DNA of 32,000 nt from an uncultured Lentisphaeria bacterium (GTDB lineage: Bacteria > Verrucomicrobiota > Lentisphaeria > JABSQK01 > JAJFLO01). The first letter of the stretch is position 1. Each line of letters starts with the position of its first letter. The DNA lies in assembly GCA_951812855.1 (NCBI GenBank), contig OX638337.1:150001-182000 (forward strand), in the 5' to 3' direction. A model generated the notes under the pieces. It was not told the DNA's origin. It searched no databases and saw nothing but the letters and a program-made list of their open reading frames with translations. Position numbers and translations under genes: made by a program. Shown here piece after piece: positions 13,889-28,111 of the stretch.

Positions 13889-16800
13889 TTAATTCGCCTC
13901 AGTAACGTTCCAGCCACCCCCAAGGGATTGATAGAGACGGACAAGCAAGCGATTGGCTGATTCGTGGGCAAGGATGATTTGTTTCTGTTTATCATGCATA
14001 TTCAATATTGCCTTAATCACATCGTGGTAATCCGACAGTCCATTCGCATATAGCGTCTCTGCAATTGTCACTGATTTGATGGCAGATGCAGCAGCAGCAT
14101 TTAATTGCGTTATTTGTTTTTGTTCGTTATCAAACGCAATTAAATTACTTTCAACTTCTTCTAATGCATGAAGAACGGTTTTCCTATAGGCAGTCATTTC
14201 CTCCCGCAGACGAAGTTTCTGTGCTCTGACTTCTTTTTTGATATAGAGACTGCTGAGAATCCGCCATTTAAAGGATGGACCGAAGCTGTACGTTTTACTT
14301 TCGTTTCGAGCCAGCTTGTTAAAGTAAGTTGAGTTCAGCCCCAAATTACCGTCTAATGTAAATTTAGGAAAATACTCGGTTCTGGCGATTTTTAAACGAG
14401 ATGCTTCGGCAGCAACACGGTGCTCTGATTTACGTATATCCGGCCTGCGTCTTAAAAGATCAGCAGGTATTCCTTCTGCTATATGTTGTTTTGGAGAGAG
14501 TAAGGAAATTTGATCCATCAGCATTGAATCCAATGCCCCTGAAACTTCGCCTGACAGAAGGCAGATACGATTGAGTGTTTGTTGTTTTTGTGTTTGGACT
14601 TGAATCAACTTAACCTGTTTAAGCAGCTGCTGTTCATTTACATCGTTAATATCCCGTTCATCAGCTGTTCCCGCATTGAATTTAGCCTTTACGAGACGGT
14701 AATTTTCCTGCAGAAGGTTAATGGTTGATTTTATTAATGACTCCTGTTCCTGCAAACTTCGATAGATAAAATATTGCTGTGCCAGATCTGCTGAAATCAT
14801 AACATGTAAATTATATAAATCTTCTGATGTCGCATGAAAATCATGTGTCGCAATATTAATGGATTCTTTAATTCGCCCCCAAAAATCCAATTCCCAGCTC
14901 GCATCCATGAACAAATCCCAGTTACTGATTGATTCAATCGTTTGAAAATTGTTCTTTATATTCTCTGAATACTGCTTTCGCCTGTAGTCACCTTCAATTT
15001 TTATAGATGGCAACCGGGTACTTTCTTCCCGTTCGATGAGCACTCTTGAACGTGCAACACGTTCCAGGCCAATCGCAATATCAAGATTCGTCAGTTTTGC
15101 CTTATTAATCAGATTTGTTAATATCGGGTCATTAAACTGATGCCACCACTGATCAAGATCACCGTCAGCAGGTGGTGAGTACGACGGTATGGACCATCTG
15201 TCAGGCAGTTTAAATTTATAATTATCGTCAATTTTATTATTTGATTTACATGATGAACCAATCACAATGATCCCCATAAGTATGAAAAGGGTTCCGGCAT
15301 TGCGGAAACGTTTTATGATTTGAGAAAATCCCATAAACAAACTCAGAAGTGCAGGGATTAATACCAGTGTAAAAACTGTAGACAACACCATGCCGCCGAC
15401 AATCACAGATCCTAACCCGCGATAGAGTTCAGAGCCGGATCCGGGAATCAGAACAAGCGGCATCATACCTCCTACAGATGTCAGCATGCTCATAAATATC
15501 GGACGAACGCGACTCTGTACCGCCAGTGCTATTGCTTTCCTCTCAGATAAAACAGGGCTTCTGTCATCGTTCTTTTCGTTATTCTTTAACAGATTGTTCG
15601 TTTGTGCAACAATTAATATTGCATTATTAACGACGACTCCGATTAATATAAAAAAGCCCAGAATAGTCAGCATATCCAGATTTTGAGTGGGGACATAGCG
15701 ATTAATTATACTCCAATGATGAAGAATGGCCAGGCCAATAAACCCGCCAAACGTAGCAAACGGGACACTGACCATAATAATCAAAGGCTGAATCCAGCTT
15801 TGAAACAAAATACACAACAATAGATAAACCGCAGCAATTGCCAGAAAAAATGAACTCTCAGCGAAACCGGAAATACTTCCGTCACCAAATAACGTTTTCC
15901 GAATATCCTGCAGTTTACCTGCTGTTCCCTGTATTTCTAAAAAAACTTTTGGAGAAATTACGCCTTTATCTCGAAGATCAGCGACAGTTTCTTCTATAGT
16001 TGCAACCGCCGCCTCAAGCGGAATTTCACCCGGGGGCGTTAATTCGAGAGAAACAGCTCGCTGCCTTTCAACCCGCTTGATTTGATCCGCTGCATCTGAC
16101 CATTGAAAACTCCCCAGACGTCTAAGAGAAACTATTTTTCCGTTTGAATTGACAACCGGTATATCAGGCAGTGTATTTAAGTGATCAAGGTCCTTACTGG
16201 TTTTTGCGATCAGTTTTAAATCAATTAAATCCCCCGAATAATCATAATCTCCTAAAATAATCCCGTCACTGACTCCCTGTACTGCCAGTCCAAAATCCTG
16301 AACTGACATGGCCATCTCTGAGAGATTAAAGTGATCAGGAATGATCTGAAGTTCACGGGAATTGACATTGAAATTTGCGGGGTCCGGTCGAAGTGTTCCT
16401 GGACCAAACTTCTCCATTAACGCCCCAAACAACGGGCTTGTTGACGAAGAGATTAAATCCAAATCGCTTCCAACCAGGTTGATTTTAATAGCCGAACCAG
16501 TTGAACCGCCAATTCGAAACAGTGGAAATTGGAATGCGAACGCATATGTTCCAGGCAGAACAGACGGCATAGTTGCTTTTTGAAACAGTGCTATATTGTC
16601 AATTGCTTTTTGAGAATCTTCACTGATTGCACCATGAAATAAAATACCATTCCGGGCAACAAGAAAATATTTCACTAAAGCAGCTGGCTCAACTGTCTCT
16701 CGAGTCTTACTGAATGGTATCTCTATAGGCTTTCGATCCGGGGTATCTTCCCAATAAGGTTGAATAGTATTTTCAACCCGCTGTCCTAATTCCTGTAATT

Positions 16801-18538
16801 GATCAAGATTATAGCCGGGTGGCGGCATCATTAAACCAAACGTAATATTTCGATTGCCTTTTGGTAAATAGTCCATTGGCGGAATCAACTTAATTGTTCC
16901 CAGAATTGTTATACCAATAAAGCACAACACAACCAGGACTTTTAAGACAAAACTGCCATTAATAAAGTAAATTAATCGATACATAAATGCATTTGTTGCG
17001 GTTCCTTTCTTCCGTATTCCATGCTTATGCAACAACGCTGCTCCGGCAGAAGGAATAACGGTAACAGCAACAAGATAACTGAATCCAACTGACGCAATAA
17101 TGGCGATAGCAATATCTTTAAATAACTGCCCAACCTGATCTGATATCATCAAAATCGGTATAAATACGACAATCGTTGTCAGTGTTGAAGCAAGAACCGC
17201 ACCGGCGACTTCTTTTGTTCCCTCATAAGCGGCCTGTAACCGTCCTCTGCCCATTTCAAGATGACTATAAATATTTTCGAGTACAACAATACAATTGTCG
17301 ACAACCATGCCAACAGCAAACGCCATTCCAGCTAAACTGACAACGTTAATGGAACGTCCCAGACTAACCATAATCACAATTGCACCTAAAACTGAAACCG
17401 GAATGGATAATGCTATAATCCCAACGGATCGGAATGAGCGTAAGAACAAAAGCAATACAACTATTGCCAGCGAACCGCCGATAAATATATTGTTTTGAAC
17501 AAGTTTAAGAGCTTGATTTATATAATTTGTGGAGCGATAAGAAAGTTCCATTTTAAGCCTGCTGGTTAATCCTAATTCCCGGGCATGCCCATCGAGTAAG
17601 CCTCCAGGTAAATGCAATTTGTCAATTTTAGCCTGAAGATTTTTCATTATTTCCAAAACATTACTTCCGGGTTCTCGTTGAAAGTTGAATGCAAGAACAG
17701 GGTTGCCATTTGCCCGGACAAATGAAGTTTGCTCCTTAAATGTTTCCTTGACCGCTGCCACATCAGCGACATAAACAATTCCGTTTGTATCCTGACGTAA
17801 AACCACATTCAATATTTGACTGACCGATGAGAACCGCCCAACCGTACGTATTCGAACATCGGTTTTTCCCTGTTTCAACGCTCCCCCGGAAATATTTAAA
17901 TTGGAACTTGTAAGAACATTCACAAAATCAGCAATCCGAATGCGATGCTGGGCAAGTTTCTCCGGGTCAAATTGTACCTGAACCTCGCGTTCTCTACCTC
18001 CGAGCACGTTTACTTCTGAAATACCCGGTACCCGTTCTAATTGGGGTTTGATTCGATCTTCAGCAAAATCAAGGAGAGTTTCAATTTCTAAAGACTTGTC
18101 CTCAGAGATCAGGATAAACCAGGCAATATAATCCTGACTCTCCGGGTCACTTGCTTCTATAACCGGTTCATCAACATTTTCGGGATAAGCAGGAACTTCA
18201 CGAAGTTTATCGCTAACCTCACGAAGTGCAGATTCTTTTTTAACTCCCGTAATAAATTCAAGTCGAATTTCCCCTCTTCCACGGCTGCTGATACTTGACA
18301 TACTCTTCAGGTTAGATAATCCCTGAAGTTTTTCTTCCTGGGGATCAATTATTTCGGATTCTATTTCATGAGGGCCGGCATTCTCCCAGTTGGTTGAAAC
18401 TGCAATGATGGTATCGTCAATTTCCGGCATCATTTGTACTGGAACAACCTTTAATGCAACAATACCCGCTAATAAACAAAATATAACTCCAACCGAAATT
18501 GTAATCGGTTGACGTGTTGATAAACGTATAATATCCAT
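13889..18538 (-). CDS. fused efflux RND permease (aa 1-~1068) plus NodT-family outer-membrane factor lipoprotein (aa ~1069-1549)
   Basis: A single uninterrupted 1549-aa ORF. The N-terminal ~1068 aa have AcrB/HAE-like 12-TM architecture. The junction reads '...LIPALLSLF-MGFSQIIKRFRNAGTLFILMGIIVIGSS-C-KSNN': a charged n-region, an h-region, and a lipobox-like GSS|C with the Cys codon at 15248-15250. The C-terminal 481 aa have OMF hallmarks ('WWHQFNDPILTNLI', C-terminal 'LYQSLGGGWN'). Confidence 0.8.
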   Translation of the reverse strand: MDIIRLSTRQPITISVGVIFCLLAGIVALKVVPVQMMPEIDDTIIAVSTNWENAGPHEIESEIIDPQEEKLQGLSNLKSMSSISSRGRGEIRLEFITGVKKESALREVSDKLREVPAYPENVDEPVIEASDPESQDYIAWFILISEDKSLEIETLLDFAEDRIKPQLERVPGISEVNVLGGREREVQVQFDPEKLAQHRIRIADFVNVLTSSNLNISGGALKQGKTDVRIRTVGRFSSVSQILNVVLRQDTNGIVYVADVAAVKETFKEQTSFVRANGNPVLAFNFQREPGSNVLEIMKNLQAKIDKLHLPGGLLDGHARELGLTSRLKMELSYRSTNYINQALKLVQNNIFIGGSLAIVVLLLFLRSFRSVGIIALSIPVSVLGAIVIMVSLGRSINVVSLAGMAFAVGMVVDNCIVVLENIYSHLEMGRGRLQAAYEGTKEVAGAVLASTLTTIVVFIPILMISDQVGQLFKDIAIAIIASVGFSYLVAVTVIPSAGAALLHKHGIRKKGTATNAFMYRLIYFINGSFVLKVLVVLCFIGITILGTIKLIPPMDYLPKGNRNITFGLMMPPPGYNLDQLQELGQRVENTIQPYWEDTPDRKPIEIPFSKTRETVEPAALVKYFLVARNGILFHGAISEDSQKAIDNIALFQKATMPSVLPGTYAFAFQFPLFRIGGSTGSAIKINLVGSDLDLISSSTSPLFGALMEKFGPGTLRPDPANFNVNSRELQIIPDHFNLSEMAMSVQDFGLAVQGVSDGIILGDYDYSGDLIDLKLIAKTSKDLDHLNTLPDIPVVNSNGKIVSLRRLGSFQWSDAADQIKRVERQRAVSLELTPPGEIPLEAAVATIEETVADLRDKGVISPKVFLEIQGTAGKLQDIRKTLFGDGSISGFAESSFFLAIAAVYLLLCILFQSWIQPLIIMVSVPFATFGGFIGLAILHHWSIINRYVPTQNLDMLTILGFFILIGVVVNNAILIVAQTNNLLKNNEKNDDRSPVLSERKAIALAVQSRVRPIFMSMLTSVGGMMPLVLIPGSGSELYRGLGSVIVGGMVLSTVFTLVLIPALLSLFMGFSQIIKRFRNAGTLFILMGIIVIGSSCKSNNKIDDNYKFKLPDRWSIPSYSPPADGDLDQWWHQFNDPILTNLINKAKLTNLDIAIGLERVARSRVLIEREESTRLPSIKIEGDYRRKQYSENIKNNFQTIESISNWDLFMDASWELDFWGRIKESINIATHDFHATSEDLYNLHVMISADLAQQYFIYRSLQEQESLIKSTINLLQENYRLVKAKFNAGTADERDINDVNEQQLLKQVKLIQVQTQKQQTLNRICLLSGEVSGALDSMLMDQISLLSPKQHIAEGIPADLLRRRPDIRKSEHRVAAEASRLKIARTEYFPKFTLDGNLGLNSTYFNKLARNESKTYSFGPSFKWRILSSLYIKKEVRAQKLRLREEMTAYRKTVLHALEEVESNLIAFDNEQKQITQLNAAAASAIKSVTIAETLYANGLSDYHDVIKAILNMHDKQKQIILAHESANRLLVRLYQSLGGGWNVTEAN

Positions 18539-22076: not shown

Positions 22077-22313
22077 TTGAAACTCTCCGTTATTGTCCCG
22101 GTTTATAATGAAGTTAATACCGTCCTCGATGTTATCGAGAAGATAGAATCGGTCTGTATTGACAAAGAAATTATAATTGTCAACGACTGCTCAACGGATG
22201 GAACAAAAGAAAAATTAGATACATTGGCAGACAAAGATCATATCAAAATTTTGCATTATAAAACTAAGGATACCCCTTTGAAAATACCTTTGAAAATATT
22301 TTCCGTTGAATAG
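22077..22313 (+). pseudogene. 3'-truncated family 2 glycosyltransferase (only ~61 authentic codons)
   Basis: TTG start with AGGAG 5 nt upstream. '[23 protein letters not shown]...[12 protein letters not shown]' is a GT2 N-terminus. Homology stops at about 22257, where repeat copy A begins. The remaining codons ('[17 protein letters not shown]') are read out of the repeat. Confidence 0.75.
22258..22298 (+). repeat. island repeat copy A: 29-nt core plus one extra CCTTTGAAAATA unit
   Basis: ATAAAACTAAGGATACCCCTTTGAAAATA at 22258-22286 is identical to copy B and differs from copy C at 1 nt. It is followed by CCTTTGAAAATA at 22287-22298. Confidence 0.9.
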
Positions 22314-22606: not shown

Positions 22607-23080
22607 ATGAAGAAGTTATATTTATTACCCCTTATAACAATTTTATTAAGTGGCTGTGAGCCAGCACCGCTTAAAATCGATCATAAAACACTTAAAAGAG
22701 ATGTTTCAATTTATTCCGGTCGTTTAGATGTCGACGTAAAGGTTAAATTTATGGGTAGTCAGGCTCTCTACAATCTTCATTTAAAGCCGGTTATAACATC
22801 CAATTTGAAGGATGGAAAAACAGAAGTTGATAAATCAAACCTGACATGGTTTGAAGAACAGATAAAAGATTATGATTCATATAAGGCTGTCTTTATACAA
22901 CTTAAAGATGTTGATGGATTTAAGCTCGCAGAAGAAGAAGTCAGAGTCTCTGAAGGTGGTGTAAGAATTCTTGACTCTGACTCTGAAGCTGAGTCTTACA
23001 TCTATGAAGGCACGTTCAGTGTTGATCCAGAAATTGTTCAGTTTGCCTCATACATAGAAATTGTATGGAATCTAAAGTAA
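22607..23080 (+). CDS. hypothetical lipoprotein
   Basis: 157 aa with a strong Shine-Dalgarno (AAGGAGAG). The signal 'MKKLYLLPLITILLSG|C' has a canonical lipobox. The mature part has no domain I recognise. Confidence 0.7.
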   Translation: MKKLYLLPLITILLSGCEPAPLKIDHKTLKRDVSIYSGRLDVDVKVKFMGSQALYNLHLKPVITSNLKDGKTEVDKSNLTWFEEQIKDYDSYKAVFIQLKDVDGFKLAEEEVRVSEGGVRILDSDSEAESYIYEGTFSVDPEIVQFASYIEIVWNLK

Positions 23081-23148
23081 GTGCCTAACGCCCCTACTGT
23101 GAAAATCATATACAAATGAAAATAAATCTAATAAAAAAAGGAGACGTA

Positions 23149-23760
23149 ATGAAAATAAATCTAATATCTATATTATTTCTTTTAATATCATCACAGCTAT
23201 ATGCAGCTGATCCATTGAGTTTCCGAGTAGGGTTTGTTGTTGAGGCTGAAGACAGCATTAAAGGGAGAATAGAGAGCTATATATCCAGAGAGTTACGATC
23301 GCTTGGTGATGTAATTCAATCAAAAGAAAATTATGATTATTTCTTATCGATTATAGCTCTAAAGTTACGAACAGAAAGTGGATACGATACAGGAGTAGCT
23401 CTATCAATCACGATAGTTTCGAAGTTTGAGAATAAGCATATGTCCTTCATACTCGAAGATCTCAAAGATGAGGATAAGTCAATAGCCATGGAGTTTACAT
23501 CAAATCTATATTATTACCCATATCACTGGCTTCAAAAAGGGTCGAATGAAGATCTGCAATCAATGTGCAAAGATATCGTCGCCGACTTTGATATTAAGTT
23601 TTTACAGAGTTATAGAGATATCTATCAAATAATACTGGATAATAAGAATAAGATTCGAGGTCTGGATGAAAATGAAATAAAAAAGTTGAAAAATACGATA
23701 CTGAAATATGGGAATAAGAGTGCAACAAAAGTATTTTTAAACACGCTTAAATCCAAATAA
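23149..23760 (+). CDS. hypothetical secreted/periplasmic protein
   Basis: 203 aa counted from ATG 23149, which has AAGGAG at 23138-23143. Signal peptide 'MKINLISILFLLISSQLYA|ADP'. No recognisable domain. The track's start at 23116 is an 18-nt duplicate of the true start region. Confidence 0.65.
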   Translation: MKINLISILFLLISSQLYAADPLSFRVGFVVEAEDSIKGRIESYISRELRSLGDVIQSKENYDYFLSIIALKLRTESGYDTGVALSITIVSKFENKHMSFILEDLKDEDKSIAMEFTSNLYYYPYHWLQKGSNEDLQSMCKDIVADFDIKFLQSYRDIYQIILDNKNKIRGLDENEIKKLKNTILKYGNKSATKVFLNTLKSK

Positions 23761-23778
23761 TAATGAAAGGAGAGAGAA

Positions 23779-24507
23779 ATGCAAAAAACACAAAGGGAAA
23801 ACAAAAAAGAGAAAGGATATGTGTATATATTGACAAATCCAAGTTTCCGTGAAGATTGGATTAAAATTGGTAAATCATTGAGAGAAGTTGATGTTAGATC
23901 AAGAGAATTAGATAATACTGCAGTTCCATTACCATTTGAAATTTTTGCCACTCTAAGAACAGAAAAATATGAGAAGGTTGAAAGAAATTTGCATAAAATT
24001 TTTACAGATTTAGCTGATATAAGGATTCGCAAGAATAGAGAGTTTTTTAATATAACACCAGAAGAAGCACTTGAGTATTTAAAAAATATAGCAGATCTTA
24101 TTGATGATGTTGATGGTGTAAAATTAAATGCTCCTGATGATGAAATTGAAACAAATGATGGGAAAAAACCAACCTACAAAGGTAAATACAACGTTAATAC
24201 TGATGAAATTTTTTATTTTGCAAAAGATACGACTGACGCTAAAATGAAGATTATTGATGGAAACAGATATATTGTTTTGGCAGGTTCCAAAATTGACTCA
24301 AAAATTTATAGTAATGGAGATTTTGTAAAAAAACTAAGAGAAGAGAACGCTAGTAGCCTTGATGGTGAAAAAACAACTTCTGATATAGAATTTACTTCAC
24401 CTTCAGCAGCTGGTAGTTTTGTTAAGGGTGGTTCAACAAACGGAAAATATTATTGGCGAACAAAGGATAATAAAAAACTTGATGACTTTATTGAATATAT
24501 ACAATAG
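23779..24507 (+). CDS. GIY-YIG superfamily (T5orf172/MUG113-like) domain protein with C-terminal DUF4357-like domain
   Basis: 242 aa with Shine-Dalgarno AAAGGAGAG. N-terminus 'GYVYILTNPSFREDWIKIGKS...R..EL......PF.....L........E..LH..F...R....REFF' fits T5orf172. C-terminus 'IVLAGSKI...DIEFTSPSAAGSFVKGGSTNGKYYWRTKD' fits the DUF4357 pattern (F.SPS.AA...G...NG...W). Confidence 0.7.
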   Translation: MQKTQRENKKEKGYVYILTNPSFREDWIKIGKSLREVDVRSRELDNTAVPLPFEIFATLRTEKYEKVERNLHKIFTDLADIRIRKNREFFNITPEEALEYLKNIADLIDDVDGVKLNAPDDEIETNDGKKPTYKGKYNVNTDEIFYFAKDTTDAKMKIIDGNRYIVLAGSKIDSKIYSNGDFVKKLREENASSLDGEKTTSDIEFTSPSAAGSFVKGGSTNGKYYWRTKDNKKLDDFIEYIQ

Positions 24508-24632
24508 TATTATTATATCCGGTCAAAGTTATTGTAGCAGTTTGCTTTTGCATATTTAAAGTGATTAAAAATTTAGAATTTTGATTGTGGACAGCTGTGC
24601 TTTTTCGGTTTTTTTTCGGCTATAATATATAT

Positions 24633-24661
24633 ATAAAACTAAGGATACCCCTTTGAAAATA
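24633..24661 (+). repeat. island repeat copy B (29-nt core only)
   Basis: ATAAAACTAAGGATACCCCTTTGAAAATA. It is preceded by TATAAT plus an (AT)n run at 24621-24634. Confidence 0.9.
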
Positions 24662-24856
24662 TTATGCCTTCCTTCGCCAGCATCCCAACCCCCAAAGTAT
24701 ATTTCAGTAAGAATGTTTCAGGCGGGTCTGTTAGATTATTCAAGAATGATTTTCACTTTCCAAAATATACCTTATACTAAAGAACACCCAGTTGGGGTTT
24801 TTTGCCGATGCTGACAGAAAAACCAGGCAGTTTCTGCAATCATCCCATAAGTTTTC

Positions 24857-24873: not shown

Positions 24874-25065
24874 ATGTCATTTTCTCCTTTTATCCAAGTT
24901 GATCATCCTTTGGTGCAAAACAAATTGACGACCATGCGACATCAAGAAACCCCCACCGGAAATTTTCCGGGCACGGTGGAACGAAATTTCACTTCTGATG
25001 GGATATAAAGTGACCCGCGACATCGCACTTTCACATGAAAGGATCGAAACGCCTTTAACGGGGCT
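24874..25065 (+). pseudogene. upp: uracil phosphoribosyltransferase 5' fragment, frameshifted and truncated
   Basis: From ATG 24874 the frame reads 'MSFSPFIQVDHPLVQNKLTTMRHQETPTGNF'. After a +1 shift near ttttCCGGG the next frame reads 'RARWNEISLLMGYKVTRDIALSHERIETPL'. Together these track the B. subtilis Upp N-terminus ('[54 protein letters not shown]'). The homology ends at about 25065, and the rest of upp is absent from the window. Confidence 0.7.
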
Positions 25066-25786
25066 GAGCACCAACTGCTTTCACTGTGGCGATACATTGT
25101 CCTTAATGGAGCAGATACCGGCTCAGTCAATTGATCTGGTTGTTACCTCGCCGCCTTACAACCTCAGGCAGTCATCCGGTAACGGAATGAAAAACGGTAA
25201 CGGTGGAAAATGGCCAAAGGCGAAGCTGATCGAGGGCTACGAAGCACATAACGACTGTATGCCGCATGATGAGTATGTTGCCTGGCAGCGAAAATGCCTA
25301 ACGGCAATGATGCGTCTGATTAAGCCGACTGGTGCAATCTTTTACAACCACAAATGGCGCGTACAGAAAGGCTTGCTACAGGACAGAGCAGACATTTTAG
25401 AAGGTTTTCCCGTTCGTCAAATCATCGTCTGGCAACGTAAAGGTGGTATCAACTTCAACCCCGGTTATTTTCTGCCAACGTATGAGGTTATCTATCTCAT
25501 TGCGAAGCCCGATTTTAAGCTTGCGCCAAAGGCTAATGCGGTTGGGGATGTCTGGGAAATCCCACAAGAATCCAACAATCCTCATCCGGCACCGTTCCCA
25601 ACAGAACTTGCGCAGCGGTGTATAGGCTCGACAGATGCCGAAGTGGTGCTGGACCCCTTTATGGGGTCAGGAACCACCGCTATTGCGGCGGAGTCCGAAG
25701 GGCGTGCGTGGATTGGCATCGAGAAAAGCAAAGACTATTGCCGGTTGGCCAAAGAGAGAATGGCCGTCTACAGGGAGCAACAATGA
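24998..25786 (+). CDS. beta-class DNA methyltransferase (SPPY type, probable N4-cytosine) of an MvaI/BcnI-type R-M system; the first ~24 codons are upp-derived
   Basis: Motif IV 'VVTSPPYN' precedes motif I 'VVLDPFMGSGTTAIAA', which is the beta-class order. The conserved N-terminal 'FHCGDTLSLMEQIP' has only one in-frame ATG upstream of it, at 24998 inside the upp' fragment. The stop overlaps the REase ATG (ATGA). Confidence 0.85.
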   Translation: MGYKVTRDIALSHERIETPLTGLSTNCFHCGDTLSLMEQIPAQSIDLVVTSPPYNLRQSSGNGMKNGNGGKWPKAKLIEGYEAHNDCMPHDEYVAWQRKCLTAMMRLIKPTGAIFYNHKWRVQKGLLQDRADILEGFPVRQIIVWQRKGGINFNPGYFLPTYEVIYLIAKPDFKLAPKANAVGDVWEIPQESNNPHPAPFPTELAQRCIGSTDAEVVLDPFMGSGTTAIAAESEGRAWIGIEKSKDYCRLAKERMAVYREQQ

Positions 25787-26451
25787 TTACCACAAAACAA
25801 TTGTTTGAGGAGATAAGAGGCCTTTGCGACAGTGGTTGGTATGATCTGCCAAAGACCGGCGCGGGGGCACCAGGAGACTTGCTGGAGAACATTCTTGGAT
25901 TGAAAACGACAAACCACGATGGGCCTGATGCTGGTTTGTGGGAACTCAAGTTTAGTCGAGGTAATTCCCTTTTAACGTTGTGCCATAAAACACCACGACC
26001 TCGCGGCATCATCAAGTACGTTATCAATAGGCATGGGTGGATAGGTAAGAATGGGCGCAAGGGGTTTCGCCATACCATTGAAGGTGAGTCAGGCAGAGGG
26101 TTCAATATAGTCTACGATTCTGGCTCCATCTGGGTACGTCATCAGGATGATATGTCCCCTGTTCCTCATTGGACAGAAGAAGACTTGACGAATGCTATCG
26201 TCTCAAAACTGCGCCGATTGGTTTATGTGACAGGAACAGTGAAATCAGGACAAGTGAGGTATGAGAAAGCCGTTGCTTTTGAGAACATCAAAACGTCTCG
26301 TCTCATGAAGGCGATTGCAGATGGCTTAATACTCGTGGACTTTGATGCCTATATCAAGGATTCAGGGGCAGTGCGCGACCACGGCACTAAGTTTAGAGTG
26401 CGGCCAGAAAACCTCGGGAAGCTCTATGTTGAATCCACTAAAATAGTTTAG
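25783..26451 (+). CDS. type IIP restriction endonuclease, MvaI/BcnI family (PD-(D/E)XK)
   Basis: 222 aa counted from ATG 25783, which has AGGGAG 5 nt upstream. 'GPDAGLWELKF' gives PD-x5-ExK, and 'DGLILVDFDAYIKDSGAVRDHGTKFRVRPENLGKLY' parallels the BcnI C-terminus as I recall it ('DGVLVMDL...GPHDRGPHLRIPISKLDKLY'). The track's alternative start at 25618 lies inside the MTase gene and is rejected. Confidence 0.72.
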   Translation: MITTKQLFEEIRGLCDSGWYDLPKTGAGAPGDLLENILGLKTTNHDGPDAGLWELKFSRGNSLLTLCHKTPRPRGIIKYVINRHGWIGKNGRKGFRHTIEGESGRGFNIVYDSGSIWVRHQDDMSPVPHWTEEDLTNAIVSKLRRLVYVTGTVKSGQVRYEKAVAFENIKTSRLMKAIADGLILVDFDAYIKDSGAVRDHGTKFRVRPENLGKLYVESTKIV

Positions 26452-26630
26452 GGGTGTCAAGTATATCATTCCCATAGATTGAAATTTAAACGAATAAGGA
26501 TTATTGCTGTTTATACCTTTTGTTTGGGGGTGATCCGGACTATACTTTCAGGAACTCGTTGATTGAAAGTACCGAGGAGTTGTGTAGCATCTAAGGCGGT
26601 TGAACTTCAACGAGGATCAGAACCTGAAGG

Positions 26631-26683
26631 ATAAAACTAAGGACACCCCTTTGAAAATACCCCTTTGAAAATATTTGAAAATA
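26631..26683 (+). repeat. island repeat copy C: 29-nt core (1 mismatch) plus CCCCTTTGAAAATA plus TTTGAAAATA
   Basis: ATAAAACTAAGGACACCCCTTTGAAAATA lies at 26631-26659, followed by two further TTTGAAAATA-containing units. That gives 3 units here, against 2 in copy A and 1 in copy B. Confidence 0.9.
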
Positions 26684-26856
26684 CCGAAGGGCAACTTGAA
26701 TCCGCCATCATTGAACTACTCGGTGAGGAGGATTACCCGAATGTGTTGGGTGAGGCGATTGAGCGGCAGCGGCAGGAAGTGTTGATCAAGACATATTTAA
26801 ATGAATTTTTGACATTGACAATCAATAGGTTAGTAGACACTTTTGAAAATCAGTAG
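26665..26856 (+). pseudogene. hsdR: type I restriction enzyme HsdR N-terminal fragment
   Basis: 'TEGQLESAIIELLGEEDYPNVLGEAIERQRQEVLIKTYLNEFL' fits the common HsdR N-terminus pattern (tEa.LE.a.i..L..lGY....G..i..eR....evlL...L...L). It has only about 60 codons, starts at a TTG inside repeat C, and ends at half-repeat E. Confidence 0.5.
26836..26850 (+). repeat. right-half degenerate copy of the island repeat (GACACTTTTGAAAAT)
   Basis: Matches GACAC(CCC)TTTGAAAAT of copy C, with CCC replaced by T. It coincides with the end of the hsdR' fragment. Confidence 0.45.
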
Positions 26857-27922: not shown

Positions 27923-28111
27923 GTGCCGGACATCATCATAGACGATGCTAATATGGCAGAAAACATAAATAAACGATTAAAGCGTCAAACACGCGTCGCA
28001 TCACTCTTCCCAAACGAGGAATCACGACTCAGATTGGCAAGTGCCATTTTGATCGAAATCACTGACCAACGGGAAACTGAAAAACGGGACCTGAAAGTGG
28101 ATCATAAATGA
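27923..28111 (+). pseudogene. IS256-family (mutator-type) transposase C-terminal remnant
   Basis: 'ANMAENINKRLKRQTRVASLFPNEESRLRLASAILIE' matches the IS256 C-terminal block (TN.iE.lN.eirRRt.vv.iFPn..S..RL..A.L.e). No upstream catalytic part is readable. Confidence 0.65.

What the first reader, a model, noticed from the sequence alone, without database searches (positions are those of the whole stretch)
22607..24507. Compact AT-rich three-gene module: lipoprotein, secreted protein and GIY-YIG(T5orf172)+DUF4357 protein
- **Layout.** Three co-oriented genes are separated by 68 and 18 nt. Each has a strong AAGGAG-type Shine-Dalgarno. They fill exactly one repeat-bounded segment, directly upstream of an R-M cassette and an hsdR relic.
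- **Third gene.** It joins a GIY-YIG-superfamily (T5orf172-like) N-terminal domain to a DUF4357-like C-terminal domain. From memory, this combination tends to sit inside type I R-M and defence loci, and its function is not established.
- **First two genes.** These are an exported lipoprotein (LLSG|C) and a signal-peptide protein (LYA|ADP). Neither has a domain I can recognise.
- **Why it matters.** Pairing a cytoplasmic nuclease-like protein with two envelope proteins is not a named defence system that I know. It could be an undescribed envelope-sensing or exclusion module, or simply unrelated cargo.
Basis: partly seen in the sequence, partly recalled or inferred. Interest (0 to 1): 0.7.

Follow-up and report, generated by a model that had tools for sequence, protein, structure and literature searches.

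The report
Unrelated cargo genes beside candidate defence nuclease
The three tightly packed genes are real, but they look like three separately acquired passengers in a decayed restriction-modification islet, and only the third (a widespread, untested candidate anti-phage nuclease) has a defence-type pedigree, so this is an ordinary mosaic rather than a new envelope-linked defence system.

Summary
**Observation: confirmed.**
- Three co-oriented ORFs lie at 22607-23080, 23149-23760 and 23779-24507, with spacers of 68 and 18 nt.
- Each has an AAGGAG-type ribosome-binding site.
- The ORFs encode a lipoprotein, a signal-peptide protein and a T5orf172+DUF4357 protein.
- A 30-nt direct repeat bounds them. 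A type II R-M pair and an hsdR relic follow.

**The "three-gene system" reading is not supported.**
- Gene 3 belongs to a large family (5,791 homologues) that PADLOC lists as an untested single-gene candidate, PDC-S57.
- About 22 homologue loci were checked, 10 of them full-length. None has a gene-1 or gene-2 relative.
- Seven of the 10 full-length contexts carry R-M or type IV restriction genes.
- Gene 1 has only two relatives in 5.8 billion proteins, and both look like integron gene cassettes. The window keeps the attC core GCCTAAC just after the stop codon.
- Gene 2 belongs to a large unnamed family of secreted proteins (1,815 cluster representatives). The five homologue contexts examined contain neither partner gene.
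- Third-position GC differs: 0.165 for gene 3 against 0.28-0.30 for genes 1 and 2.

**Best reading:** mosaic cargo in a degraded type I R-M locus, with gene 3 as a solitary DNA-reading nuclease.

**Unexplained:** the bounding repeat is the ribosome-binding site and start of the lost hsdR gene, present three times.

**Interest:** low.

The parts
22077..22256 (+). N-terminal fragment (about 60 codons) of a family-2 glycosyltransferase gene. It is cut off exactly where repeat copy 1 begins.
   Evidence: Pfam Glycos_transf_2, E 1.9e-12, covers profile positions 1-59 of 168 only. ORF listing.
22257..22300 (+). Repeat copy 1. It consists of the 30-nt leader (ATAAAACTAAGGATACCCC + TTTGAAAATA) plus a second CC-TTTGAAAATA unit.
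   Evidence: The sister strain L001 has one unit fewer.
22607..23080 (+). g1, a 157-aa lipoprotein (LLSG|C). It descends from an integron-cassette gene. It lacks about 40 residues that its two relatives have after the lipobox Cys.
   Evidence: Only 3 proteins were found in 5.8 billion. The alignment is A4. The relative in L010 is followed by a complete attC, and the one in L009 lies between attC-type cores read by eye. The AF2 model failed with pLDDT 32.
23083..23089 (+). GCCTAAC, the attC R'' core relic, 2 nt after the g1 stop codon. No complete attC remains here.
   Evidence: The sequence is. The same core sits 2-5 nt after the stop in L009 and L010. The attC scan of the window found no complete site.
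23149..23760 (+). g2, a 203-aa secreted protein (LYA|ADP). It belongs to a large unnamed family carrying the motifs SYIxRELRSLGDV and C..IVADFD. It has a lineage-specific K-rich C-terminal extension.
   Evidence: (1,815 cluster representatives). The AF2 model has pLDDT 74. Foldseek gives only weak PelC/LptE-like matches, TM 0.3-0.45.
23779..24507 (+). g3, a 242-aa protein with an N-terminal T5orf172 (GIY-YIG superfamily) nuclease-type domain and a C-terminal DUF4357-containing module of about 110 aa. It is a PADLOC PDC-S57-type candidate.
   Evidence: and 67 (all family-invariant residues are retained).
24632..24663 (+). Repeat copy 2: the leader plus one TTTGAAAATA unit.
   Evidence: L001 has an extra unit and a 34-nt insertion here.
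24998..25786 (+). N4/N6 DNA methyltransferase of a type II R-M pair. GC is 50%, so it is of foreign origin.
   Evidence: Pfam N6_N4_Mtase, E 1.9e-40. PADLOC MTase_II, E 4.6e-116. GC.
25783..26451 (+). MvaI/BcnI-family restriction endonuclease. It overlaps the methyltransferase gene by 4 nt.
   Evidence: Pfam MvaI_BcnI, E 2.5e-28.
26630..26679 (+). Repeat copy 3: the leader plus three TTTGAAAATA units. It contains the ribosome-binding site (TAAGGA) and the TTG start of the hsdR relic.
   Evidence: L001 has one unit fewer.
26665..26856 (+). A 63-codon relic of the N-terminus of a type I restriction subunit HsdR.
   Evidence: tblastn gives 59% identity over residues 2-50 to the first codons of an annotated HsdR on plasmid NZ_CP084857. 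There is no Pfam hit.

Best explanation
**Overall reading.** The segment is a mosaic islet, not a three-component system. It lies in what remains of a type I R-M locus. Only the ribosome-binding site and the first ~50 codons of hsdR survive, and that leader sequence is present three times, delimiting two blocks of foreign DNA. Block 1 carries three genes with separate histories.

**g3, the only defence-type gene.**
- It is a stand-alone cytoplasmic nuclease of the T5orf172+DUF4357 family, which PADLOC lists as PDC-S57.
- Inferred mechanism: the C-terminal DUF4357-containing module (residues ~128-240) binds DNA. It is distantly RAMA-like and probably reads modification state. It positions the N-terminal GIY-YIG-type T5orf172 domain to cut invading DNA. 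This would make g3 a one-gene, type-IV-like or R-M-accessory restriction factor.
- It needs no envelope partners. In every other genome examined it occurs without them.

**g1.** This is a lipoprotein gene captured from an integron cassette array. It is now partly decayed.

**g2.** This is an intact member of a widespread family of small secreted (periplasmic) proteins. Its function is unknown and its fold is weakly PelC/LptE-like.

**Why they are packed together.** The three may well be co-transcribed. That reflects cassette-style packing, not shared function.

**Shown versus inferred.**
- Shown: gene structures, domain content, family sizes, lack of co-occurrence, the attC relic, the hsdR relic and the repeats.
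- Inferred: nuclease activity, the modification-reading role, the defence role and co-transcription.
For: **No co-occurrence**
- tblastn with the g1 and g2 families found nothing in 19 genome loci holding g3 homologues.
- Gene calls for the additional close g3 homologues P0014 (76% identical) and P0047 (70%) show no such neighbours either.
- The g2 homologues P0005-P0009 were looked up in five distinct contexts. None has a g1 relative or a T5orf172/DUF4357 gene nearby.
- g1 has only two relatives.
  - In L010 the relative is followed by a complete 107-nt attC.
  - In L009 it lies between attC-type cores, and the next cassette encodes an unrelated protein.
- The window keeps GCCTAAC 2 nt after the g1 stop codon.

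**g3 stands alone**
- It has 5,791 homologues at E<=1e-5. The top 120 all have T5orf172+DUF4357 and are about 235 aa long.
- They occur across Patescibacteria, Alphaproteobacteria, Clostridia and Methanobrevibacter.
- PADLOC single-gene candidate PDC-S57 matches at E 1.7e-49. The model PDLC05040 matches over the full length at E 8e-13.
- Seven of 10 full-length contexts have R-M or type IV genes within about 5 kb: L011, L013, L014, L016, L033, L038 and the window.

**g3 looks catalytically intact**
- The GYVYIL...WIKIG motif, R40, the R87-E88-F89-F90 block and N91 are invariant or nearly invariant across 28 homologues, and the window copy keeps them.
- T5orf172 belongs to the GIY-YIG superfamily and supplies the nuclease domain of phage ICP1 Gp88 (PMC8263062).
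- DUF4357 fused to GIY-YIG/T5orf172 domains, and RAMA fused to T5orf172 nucleases in R-M systems, have both been noted before (PMC4619093; PMC4738411).

**Different composition**
- GC3 is 0.165 for g3, 0.28 for g1, 0.30 for g2 and about 0.35 for host genes.

**Different evolutionary state between the two sister strains**
- g1 carries 10 substitutions, clustered in a conserved motif. g2 carries 1 and g3 carries 0.
Against: **Features that fit one transcription unit**
- The three genes are co-oriented, have spacers of only 68 and 18 nt, and each has a strong ribosome-binding site.
- They are kept as a block in both sister genomes.
- All three are more AT-rich than the host.
- Together they fill one repeat-bounded segment. 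They therefore travelled or were retained together at least once.

**Thin sampling**
- g1 has only two relatives, both on contigs under 1.4 kb.
- Only five g2-family contexts, out of about 1,800 family clusters, could be inspected.

**Missing functional evidence**
- No experimental data exist for any of the three proteins or for PDC-S57.
- The DUF4357-RAMA link rests on a weak Pfam hit (E 0.07) and on the literature.
- I could not model g3.
Confidence: 0.75

Rival explanations
1. The trio, or the pair g2+g3, is a lineage-specific functional module. In this reading the envelope proteins sense or block phage or plasmid entry, and the cytoplasmic nuclease executes the response.
For: - The genes show tight operon-like packing and strong ribosome-binding sites.
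- The block is conserved in both sister strains.
- It sits next to R-M genes and an hsdR relic.
- The g2 model weakly resembles outer-membrane lipoprotein folds, including a faint match to the surface-exclusion protein TraT (E 1e-2, TM 0.23).
Against: - No co-occurrence was found in about 22 loci with g3 homologues, five g2 contexts or two g1 contexts.
- g3 has no transmembrane or signal sequence that could couple it to the envelope.
- g1 is a decaying integron-cassette gene.
- None of the three proteins' relatives is ever fused to, or adjacent to, relatives of the others.
- PADLOC classes the g3 family as single-gene.
Confidence: 0.05
2. g3 is primarily a selfish, homing-endonuclease-like mobile gene rather than a host defence. 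It spreads by cutting and inserting, and its position next to R-M genes only reflects shared insertion-tolerant hotspots.
For: - T5orf172 domains are typical of phage homing endonuclease genes (PMC10448857; PHROG hits annotated 'homing endonuclease' and 'endonuclease').
- Copies 70-79% identical occur in distant phyla.
- Solo insertions occur inside housekeeping operons: a pilus operon in L033 and a cell-wall cluster in L038.
- Frameshifted copies occur in L013 and L027.
Against: - The full T5orf172+DUF4357 architecture was not found in 2.9 million viral contigs; only N-terminal-domain matches appeared.
- R-M or type IV neighbours recur in 7 of 10 contexts.
- In L033 the g3 homologue overlaps a D12 methyltransferase gene by 4 nt.
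- The family was picked up by guilt-by-embedding in defence systems.
Confidence: 0.15
3. g3 is the restriction component of an R-M system whose cognate methyltransferase has been lost or lies elsewhere. This would make it a type II-like enzyme rather than a modification-dependent one.
For: - Iyer et al. describe RAMA-fused T5orf172 nucleases as restriction enzymes of N6A-modifying R-M systems (PMC4738411).
- In L033 the homologue is translationally coupled to a D12 N6A methyltransferase.
Against: - In the window g3 has no coupled methyltransferase. The nearest one is paired with its own MvaI/BcnI nuclease and lies in a different repeat-bounded block with 50% GC.
- Several homologues have no methyltransferase nearby: L012, L015 and L017.
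- An unprotected type II enzyme would be lethal, yet the gene is intact and identical in both strains.
Confidence: 0.05

Closest known systems
PADLOC phage defence candidate PDC-S57 (single-gene; Payne et al., bioRxiv 10.1101/2024.01.29.577857)
   Same: - g3 matches all four PDC-S57 models. The best is E 1.7e-49, and PDLC05040 matches over the full length at E 8e-13.
- It has the same size and the same T5orf172+DUF4357 architecture.
- It lies in a decayed type I R-M locus. This fits how PDC candidates were found, namely embedded in BREX, DISARM or type I R-M systems.
   Different: - PDC-S57 is an untested bioinformatic candidate, so there is no established function to inherit.
- In this window the surrounding type I system is only a relic.
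PD-Lambda-1 (DUF4041 + T5orf172 single-gene defence)
   Same: - They share the T5orf172 nuclease-type domain (PADLOC E 9.6e-14, g3 residues 9-127 against profile positions 352-470).
- Both are single-gene.
   Different: - In PD-Lambda-1 the T5orf172 domain is C-terminal, behind a different N-terminal region of about 350 aa.
- PD-Lambda-1 has no DUF4357, so it is not the same family.
Phage ICP1 Gp88 (Odn), an origin-directed T5orf172 nuclease (PMC8263062)
   Same: - It is a T5orf172 (GIY-YIG superfamily) catalytic domain joined to a separate DNA-recognition domain that sets target specificity.
- This is the working model proposed here for g3.
   Different: - Gp88 is phage-encoded.
- Its recognition domain is RepA_N-like rather than DUF4357, and the domain order is reversed.
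RAMA/DUF4357-bearing restriction proteins (GmrSD homologues, McrB-type proteins, N6A R-M nucleases; PMC4619093, PMC4738411, PMC11090510)
   Same: DUF4357 recurs as an accessory domain of restriction nucleases and NTPases. It had already been recorded fused to GIY-YIG and T5orf172 domains.
   Different: - Those proteins are larger, multi-domain or multi-subunit.
- The role of DUF4357 is predicted, not shown.
- The RAMA hit in g3 is weak (E 0.07).
Integron gene cassettes (for g1)
   Same: - The g1 relative in L010 is an ORF followed by a complete attC, and the one in L009 lies between attC-type cores.
- The window keeps the R'' core at the same position.
   Different: No complete attC and no integrase are present in the 32-kb window.
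PelC / LptE-type outer-membrane lipoprotein fold (for g2)
   Same: - The best Foldseek matches are PelC, LptE, Cj1090c and DUF330 (E 2e-4 to 1e-3, probability 0.97-1.0).
- Like those proteins, g2 is exported.
   Different: - TM-scores are only 0.3-0.45 and sequence identity is 8-16%.
- g2 has a signal peptidase I site, not a lipobox.
- There is no sequence-level relation to anything in the PDB.

Membership tests
PDC-S57 (PADLOC candidate) | Protein matches the family's HMMs | tested here: met
   PDLC05042 matches at E 1.7e-49, PDLC05041 at 8.6e-40, PDLC05043 at 1.5e-25, and PDLC05040 at 8e-13 over residues 12-238.
PDC-S57 (PADLOC candidate) | Single gene, sufficient on its own, and found embedded in or next to BREX, DISARM or type I R-M systems | tested here: inconclusive
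   Homologues occur without conserved partners. Here the type I system is only an hsdR relic. Sufficiency is an experimental question.
GIY-YIG superfamily nuclease (T5orf172 branch) | Pfam T5orf172 match above the gathering score | tested here: met
   The score is 52.9 bits against a cut-off of 20. MUG113 scores 42.9 against 22.3.
GIY-YIG superfamily nuclease (T5orf172 branch) | Conserved motif residues (GIY-like, YIG-like, catalytic Arg, metal-binding Glu, Asn) | tested here: met
   G13-Y14-V15-Y16, W27/K29/G31, R40 and R87-E88-F89-F90 are invariant, and N91 is nearly invariant, in 28 homologues. All are present in the window copy. Assigning catalytic roles to them is by analogy.
GIY-YIG superfamily nuclease (T5orf172 branch) | DNA cleavage activity | not testable with these tools
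   This needs biochemistry.
Modification-dependent (type IV-like) restriction | A domain that discriminates modified DNA | tested here: inconclusive
   DUF4357 scores 46.8 bits against a cut-off of 38.4. RAMA reaches only E 0.07, below its cut-off. There is no solved relative. The function of DUF4357 is only predicted in the literature.
Integron gene cassette (g1) | ORF followed by a complete attC (R''-L''...L'-R') | tested here: not met
   In the window only the R'' core GCCTAAC survives (23083-23089), and the attC scan found nothing. The feature is met for the relative in L010 (679-785). For the L009 relative the cores were read by eye and the scan was negative.
Integron | An IntI integrase and attI nearby | tested here: not met
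   None of the ORFs of >=90 aa that were scanned against Pfam has an integrase or recombinase domain.
Type I R-M system | hsdM, hsdS and a full-length hsdR | tested here: not met
   Only about 50 N-terminal codons of hsdR remain. No hsdM or hsdS is present in the window.
Type II R-M system (MvaI/BcnI type; neighbouring block) | Adjacent methyltransferase and endonuclease genes, both intact | tested here: met
   N6_N4_Mtase matches at E 1.9e-40 over the full profile. MvaI_BcnI matches at E 2.5e-28 over profile positions 3-227 of 227. The genes overlap by 4 nt.
Multi-gene defence system comprising g1+g2+g3 | Conserved co-occurrence and gene order across unrelated genomes | tested here: not met
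   No co-occurrence was seen in any locus outside the two sister strains.

The most novel reading that the evidence does not exclude
**Proposal.** The 30-nt hsdR leader (ribosome-binding site plus start codon), followed by variable TTTGAAAATA units, is a recombination site at which circular DNA cassettes are captured.
- The layout [leader]-AT-rich trio-[leader]-GC-rich R-M pair-[leader]-hsdR is the signature of successive Campbell-type or site-specific insertions of circles that each carry one leader copy.
- If this were general, it would give a mechanism for how defence genes become 'embedded' inside type I R-M loci.

**What speaks for it.**
- There are three copies where none is expected by chance.
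- The two blocks have very different composition.
- All three copies differ in unit number between two 99.2%-identical strains.

**What speaks against it.**
- No recombinase is nearby.
- The repeat was not found in JGI metagenomes or in plasmids.
- Slippage together with ordinary recombination could also produce this pattern.
Probability: 0.1. Interest if true: 0.6.

Novelty: new member of a known kind. Interest (0 to 1): 0.2.

Why it matters
**Main value: corrective.**
- A tidy, operon-like trio next to R-M genes looks like a new defence system. Tracing each gene through public data shows three separate histories.
- This guards against over-calling "systems" from packing alone.

**Leads that remain.**
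- g3 adds a clean, intact example of the untested PDC-S57 family, in a diderm host and in a decayed type I R-M setting. It would be a reasonable representative for experimental testing.
- g2 flags a sizeable family of secreted proteins (about 1,800 clusters) with no Pfam or NCBIfam model.
- The triplicated hsdR leader hints at how foreign blocks accumulate at type I R-M loci.

Tried and rejected
- **attC sites in the window.** A scan for R''/R' cores with a paired stem found none in the window. It recovered the clear attC in L010. The islet is therefore not an intact integron array.
- **A diversity-generating retroelement for the g1 substitution cluster.** I rejected this. The changes are not adenine-specific (TT>GG, G>A, G>C), and the window contains no template repeat and no reverse transcriptase.
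- **The 30-nt repeat as a known mobile-element end.**
  - There were no exact matches in JGI metagenome contigs.
  - Only chance-level hits appeared in plasmids.
  - The block has no match in phage genomes.
- **Structure of g1.** AF2 with 4 sequences gave pLDDT 32, which is unusable.
- **More relatives of g1.** None were found in JGI metagenomes or IMG/VR.
- **g2 in phages or plasmids.** There were no matches. Foldseek against viral structures gave nothing significant.
- **Solved structures by sequence.** Neither the g2 nor the g3 family profile matched anything.
- **Promoter and terminator scan.** It was uninformative in this AT-rich DNA.
- **Source organism.**
  - The housekeeping proteins cluster only with the sister strain and carry no names.
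  - The exact look-up of g1 failed.
  - I infer only a diderm bacterium with a genome of about 1.94 Mb and about 40% GC, from the RND/OEP/HlyD genes.
Full report
- The ORF listing and raw sequence show three co-oriented genes.
  - g1 is 22607-23080 (157 aa) and begins MKKLYLLPLITILLSG|C, a lipobox.
  - g2 has its ribosome-binding-site-served ATG at 23149 and ends at 23760 (203 aa, identical to database protein P0004). Its signal peptide ends LYA|ADP.
  - g3 is 23779-24507 (242 aa).
- The spacers are 68 and 18 nt, and each start is preceded by AAGGAG or AAAGGAG.
- Pfam gives g3 T5orf172 (E 5.8e-14) and DUF4357 (E 2.9e-12). g1 and g2 match nothing in Pfam, NCBIfam, PHROGs or PADLOC.
- The block has 30-35% GC against about 40% in the flanks and about 50% in the next block.
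- A 30-mer occurs at 22257, 24632 and 26630, where 0 matches are expected by chance.
- Downstream lie an N6_N4 methyltransferase and a MvaI/BcnI-family endonuclease.
- After these comes a 63-codon ORF. Its residues 2-50 are 59% identical to the first codons of an annotated type I HsdR.
- Upstream, a family-2 glycosyltransferase gene is cut off at codon ~60, exactly at repeat copy 1.

**2. Setting.**
- The rest of the window is housekeeping: prmC, a UvrD-type helicase, dapF, lysA, leuCD, an RND pump fused to an outer-membrane factor, TauE and a TrkA-type channel. It contains no integrase.
- The window comes from a long-read metagenome-assembled chromosome of about 1.94 Mb. A sister strain from sample ERZ18545485 (L001) is 99.2% identical over 18 kb and has the same islet.
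- The housekeeping proteins looked up (LeuC and the UvrD-type helicase) have no other relatives at >=90% identity among 15 billion proteins. No 'empty site' could therefore be examined.

**3. Do the three genes belong together? The evidence says no.**

*g1.*
- It has only two relatives in 5.8 billion proteins. None were found in JGI metagenome or IMG/VR scans.
- Both relatives have the layout of integron gene cassettes.
  - In L010 the gene is followed by a textbook 107-nt attC, GCCTAAC...GTTAGGC.
  - In L009 it lies between attC-type cores, and the next cassette encodes an unrelated protein.
- The window retains the attC R'' core GCCTAAC two bases after the g1 stop codon (23083-23089). No complete attC remains.
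- g1 also lacks about 40 residues that both relatives have after the lipobox cysteine.
- Between the sister strains g1 has 10 substitutions in 474 nt. Six lie within 23 nt and hit the family-conserved FVGIVGSGS motif. g2 has 1 substitution and g3 has 0.
- g1 looks like a decaying passenger gene.

*g2.*
- The word-indexed search found only five relatives. The exhaustive profile search found 1,815 cluster representatives at E<=1e-3 and 1,092 at E<=1e-10. The 150 listed are mostly 160-250 aa.
- The family has conserved motifs SYIxRELRSLGDV and C..IVADFD. It has no Pfam or NCBIfam model and no solved relative.
- The window copy keeps every invariant residue and has a unique K-rich C-terminal tail.
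- The AF2 model (pLDDT 74, core above 90) matches PelC, LptE and DUF330-type lipoproteins only weakly, at TM 0.3-0.45. Nothing significant appeared among viral structures.
- The five relatives' contexts that could be examined are:
  - beside SHOCT and DUF234-ATPase genes;
  - beside a PKD-repeat protein;
  - on a Rep3 plasmid-like element;
  - on short contigs.
- None of these contains a g1 relative or a T5orf172/DUF4357 gene.

*g3.*
- It has 5,791 homologues at E<=1e-5. The top 120 all have the same two-domain architecture and are about 235 aa long. Sources name them 'GIY-YIG nuclease family protein' or 'DUF4357 domain-containing protein'.
- Homologues 50-79% identical occur in Patescibacteria, Alphaproteobacteria, Clostridia and Methanobrevibacter.
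- tblastn with both envelope-protein families found nothing in 19 genome loci holding g3 homologues. The gene calls for two further close homologues show no such neighbours.
- In 7 of 10 full-length contexts there are R-M or type IV restriction genes within about 5 kb:
  - two methyltransferases plus a serine recombinase (L011);
  - GmrSD (L013);
  - an HNH protein plus a C5/N6 methyltransferase (L014);
  - a type ISP enzyme (L016);
  - an N6_N4 methyltransferase plus an overlapping D12 methyltransferase (L033);
  - an Eco57I-type methyltransferase (L038);
  - the MvaI/BcnI pair in the window.
- g3's GC3 (0.165) is far below that of g1 (0.28), g2 (0.30) and the host (about 0.35). This fits a separate, very AT-rich donor.

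**4. What g3 most likely does.**
- PADLOC models of the single-gene candidate PDC-S57 match strongly. The best is E 1.7e-49, and one model matches over the full length at E 8e-13.
- The C-terminal ~110 residues also match PDC-S14, and the N-terminal domain also matches PD-Lambda-1.
- PDC candidates were defined by 'guilt-by-embedding' inside BREX, DISARM and type I R-M systems, and they are untested (bioRxiv 10.1101/2024.01.29.577857).
- T5orf172 belongs to the GIY-YIG superfamily and is the nuclease domain of phage ICP1 Gp88 (PMC8263062).
- DUF4357 had been noted fused to GIY-YIG/T5orf172 domains and to GmrSD (PMC4619093).
- The related RAMA domain was predicted to read adenine methylation in restriction nucleases, including T5orf172 ones (PMC4738411).
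- The window copy keeps all residues that are invariant across 28 homologues: GYVYIL, W27/K29/G31, R40 and R87-E88-F89-F90. It also keeps the nearly invariant N91.
- I therefore infer a one-gene restriction factor. The C-terminal module binds DNA, possibly modified DNA, and the N-terminal domain cuts it. Nuclease activity, specificity and a defence phenotype are all inferred, not shown.
- A selfish, homing-like lifestyle is a live alternative (and the frameshifted copies).

**5. The repeat.**
- The 30-mer carries a TAAGGA ribosome-binding site and the TTG start of the hsdR relic.
- Each copy is followed by 1-3 units of TTTGAAAATA with 0-4 C spacers. The unit number differs between the two sister strains at all three copies.
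- The layout is [leader]-block 1 (AT-rich trio)-[leader]-block 2 (50% GC R-M pair with a possible upp fragment)-[leader]-hsdR relic. This is what successive single-crossover insertions of circles carrying one leader copy would produce.
- There is no recombinase nearby, and I found the sequence nowhere else. Slippage plus ordinary recombination cannot be excluded. I leave this as an unexplained lead.

**6. Verdict.**
The 'unrelated cargo' alternative is supported.
- What is present is:
  - a new member of a known but untested candidate defence family (g3);
  - an integron-derived lipoprotein remnant (g1);
  - a member of an unnamed family of secreted proteins (g2).
- All three are packed into one block of a degraded type I R-M locus.
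- Caveats: sampling for g1 (two short contigs) and for g2 (five contexts) is thin, and nothing has been tested experimentally.
- Interest is low (0.2). The triplicated hsdR leader is the only element that might repay further work.

Noticed in passing
window 22257-22300, 24632-24663, 26630-26679: The bounding repeat is the ribosome-binding site plus TTG start of the lost hsdR gene, present three times. Each copy carries 1-3 TTTGAAAATA units, and the unit number differs between the two 99.2%-identical strains at all three copies. This could be a cassette-capture or phase-variable site.
   Followed up: partly
window 22958-22980 (inside g1): Six substitutions within 23 nt separate the window from sister strain L001. 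All are non-synonymous, and they change the family-conserved FVGIVGSGS motif to GVRILDSDS. g1 carries 10 differences in total, against 1 in g2 and 0 in g3. The changes are not adenine-specific, and no template repeat was found.
   Followed up: partly
window 23115-23133 and 23148-23166: There is an exact 19-nt duplication, AATGAAAATAAATCTAATA. The first codons of g2 are thus repeated 33 nt upstream, which creates an upstream in-frame ATG at 23116.
   Followed up: no
window 24874-25008: A 44-codon ORF resembles the N-terminus of uracil phosphoribosyltransferase (Pfam UPRTase, E 0.009, weak). It may be a gene fragment imported with the GC-rich R-M block.
   Followed up: no
window 27953-28111: A 52-codon ORF (...RVASLFPNEESRLRLASAILIEI...) is a C-terminal relic of a Transposase_mut (PF00872) transposase. 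The equivalent gene call in L002 carries that Pfam hit.
   Followed up: partly
window 13889-18538 (- strand): A single 1,549-aa ORF fuses a complete AcrB-type RND transporter to an outer-membrane efflux protein (OEP) domain. This is an unusual fusion of inner- and outer-membrane pump components.
   Followed up: no
L033 6001-7778 (also L034-L037): In a metagenome-assembled genome (GCA_964362995.1), the 76%-identical g3 homologue overlaps a D12-class N6A methyltransferase gene by 4 nt. It follows an N6_N4 methyltransferase and a 299-aa unknown protein. All of these are inserted inside a type IV pilus operon.
   Followed up: partly
g2 family (P0005-P0009, P0130-P0277): This is a large family of secreted proteins with no Pfam or NCBIfam model (1,815 cluster representatives; the 150 listed are mostly 160-250 aa). 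Invariant residues are S44, R48, E49, R51, D55 and D149 in window numbering.
   Followed up: partly
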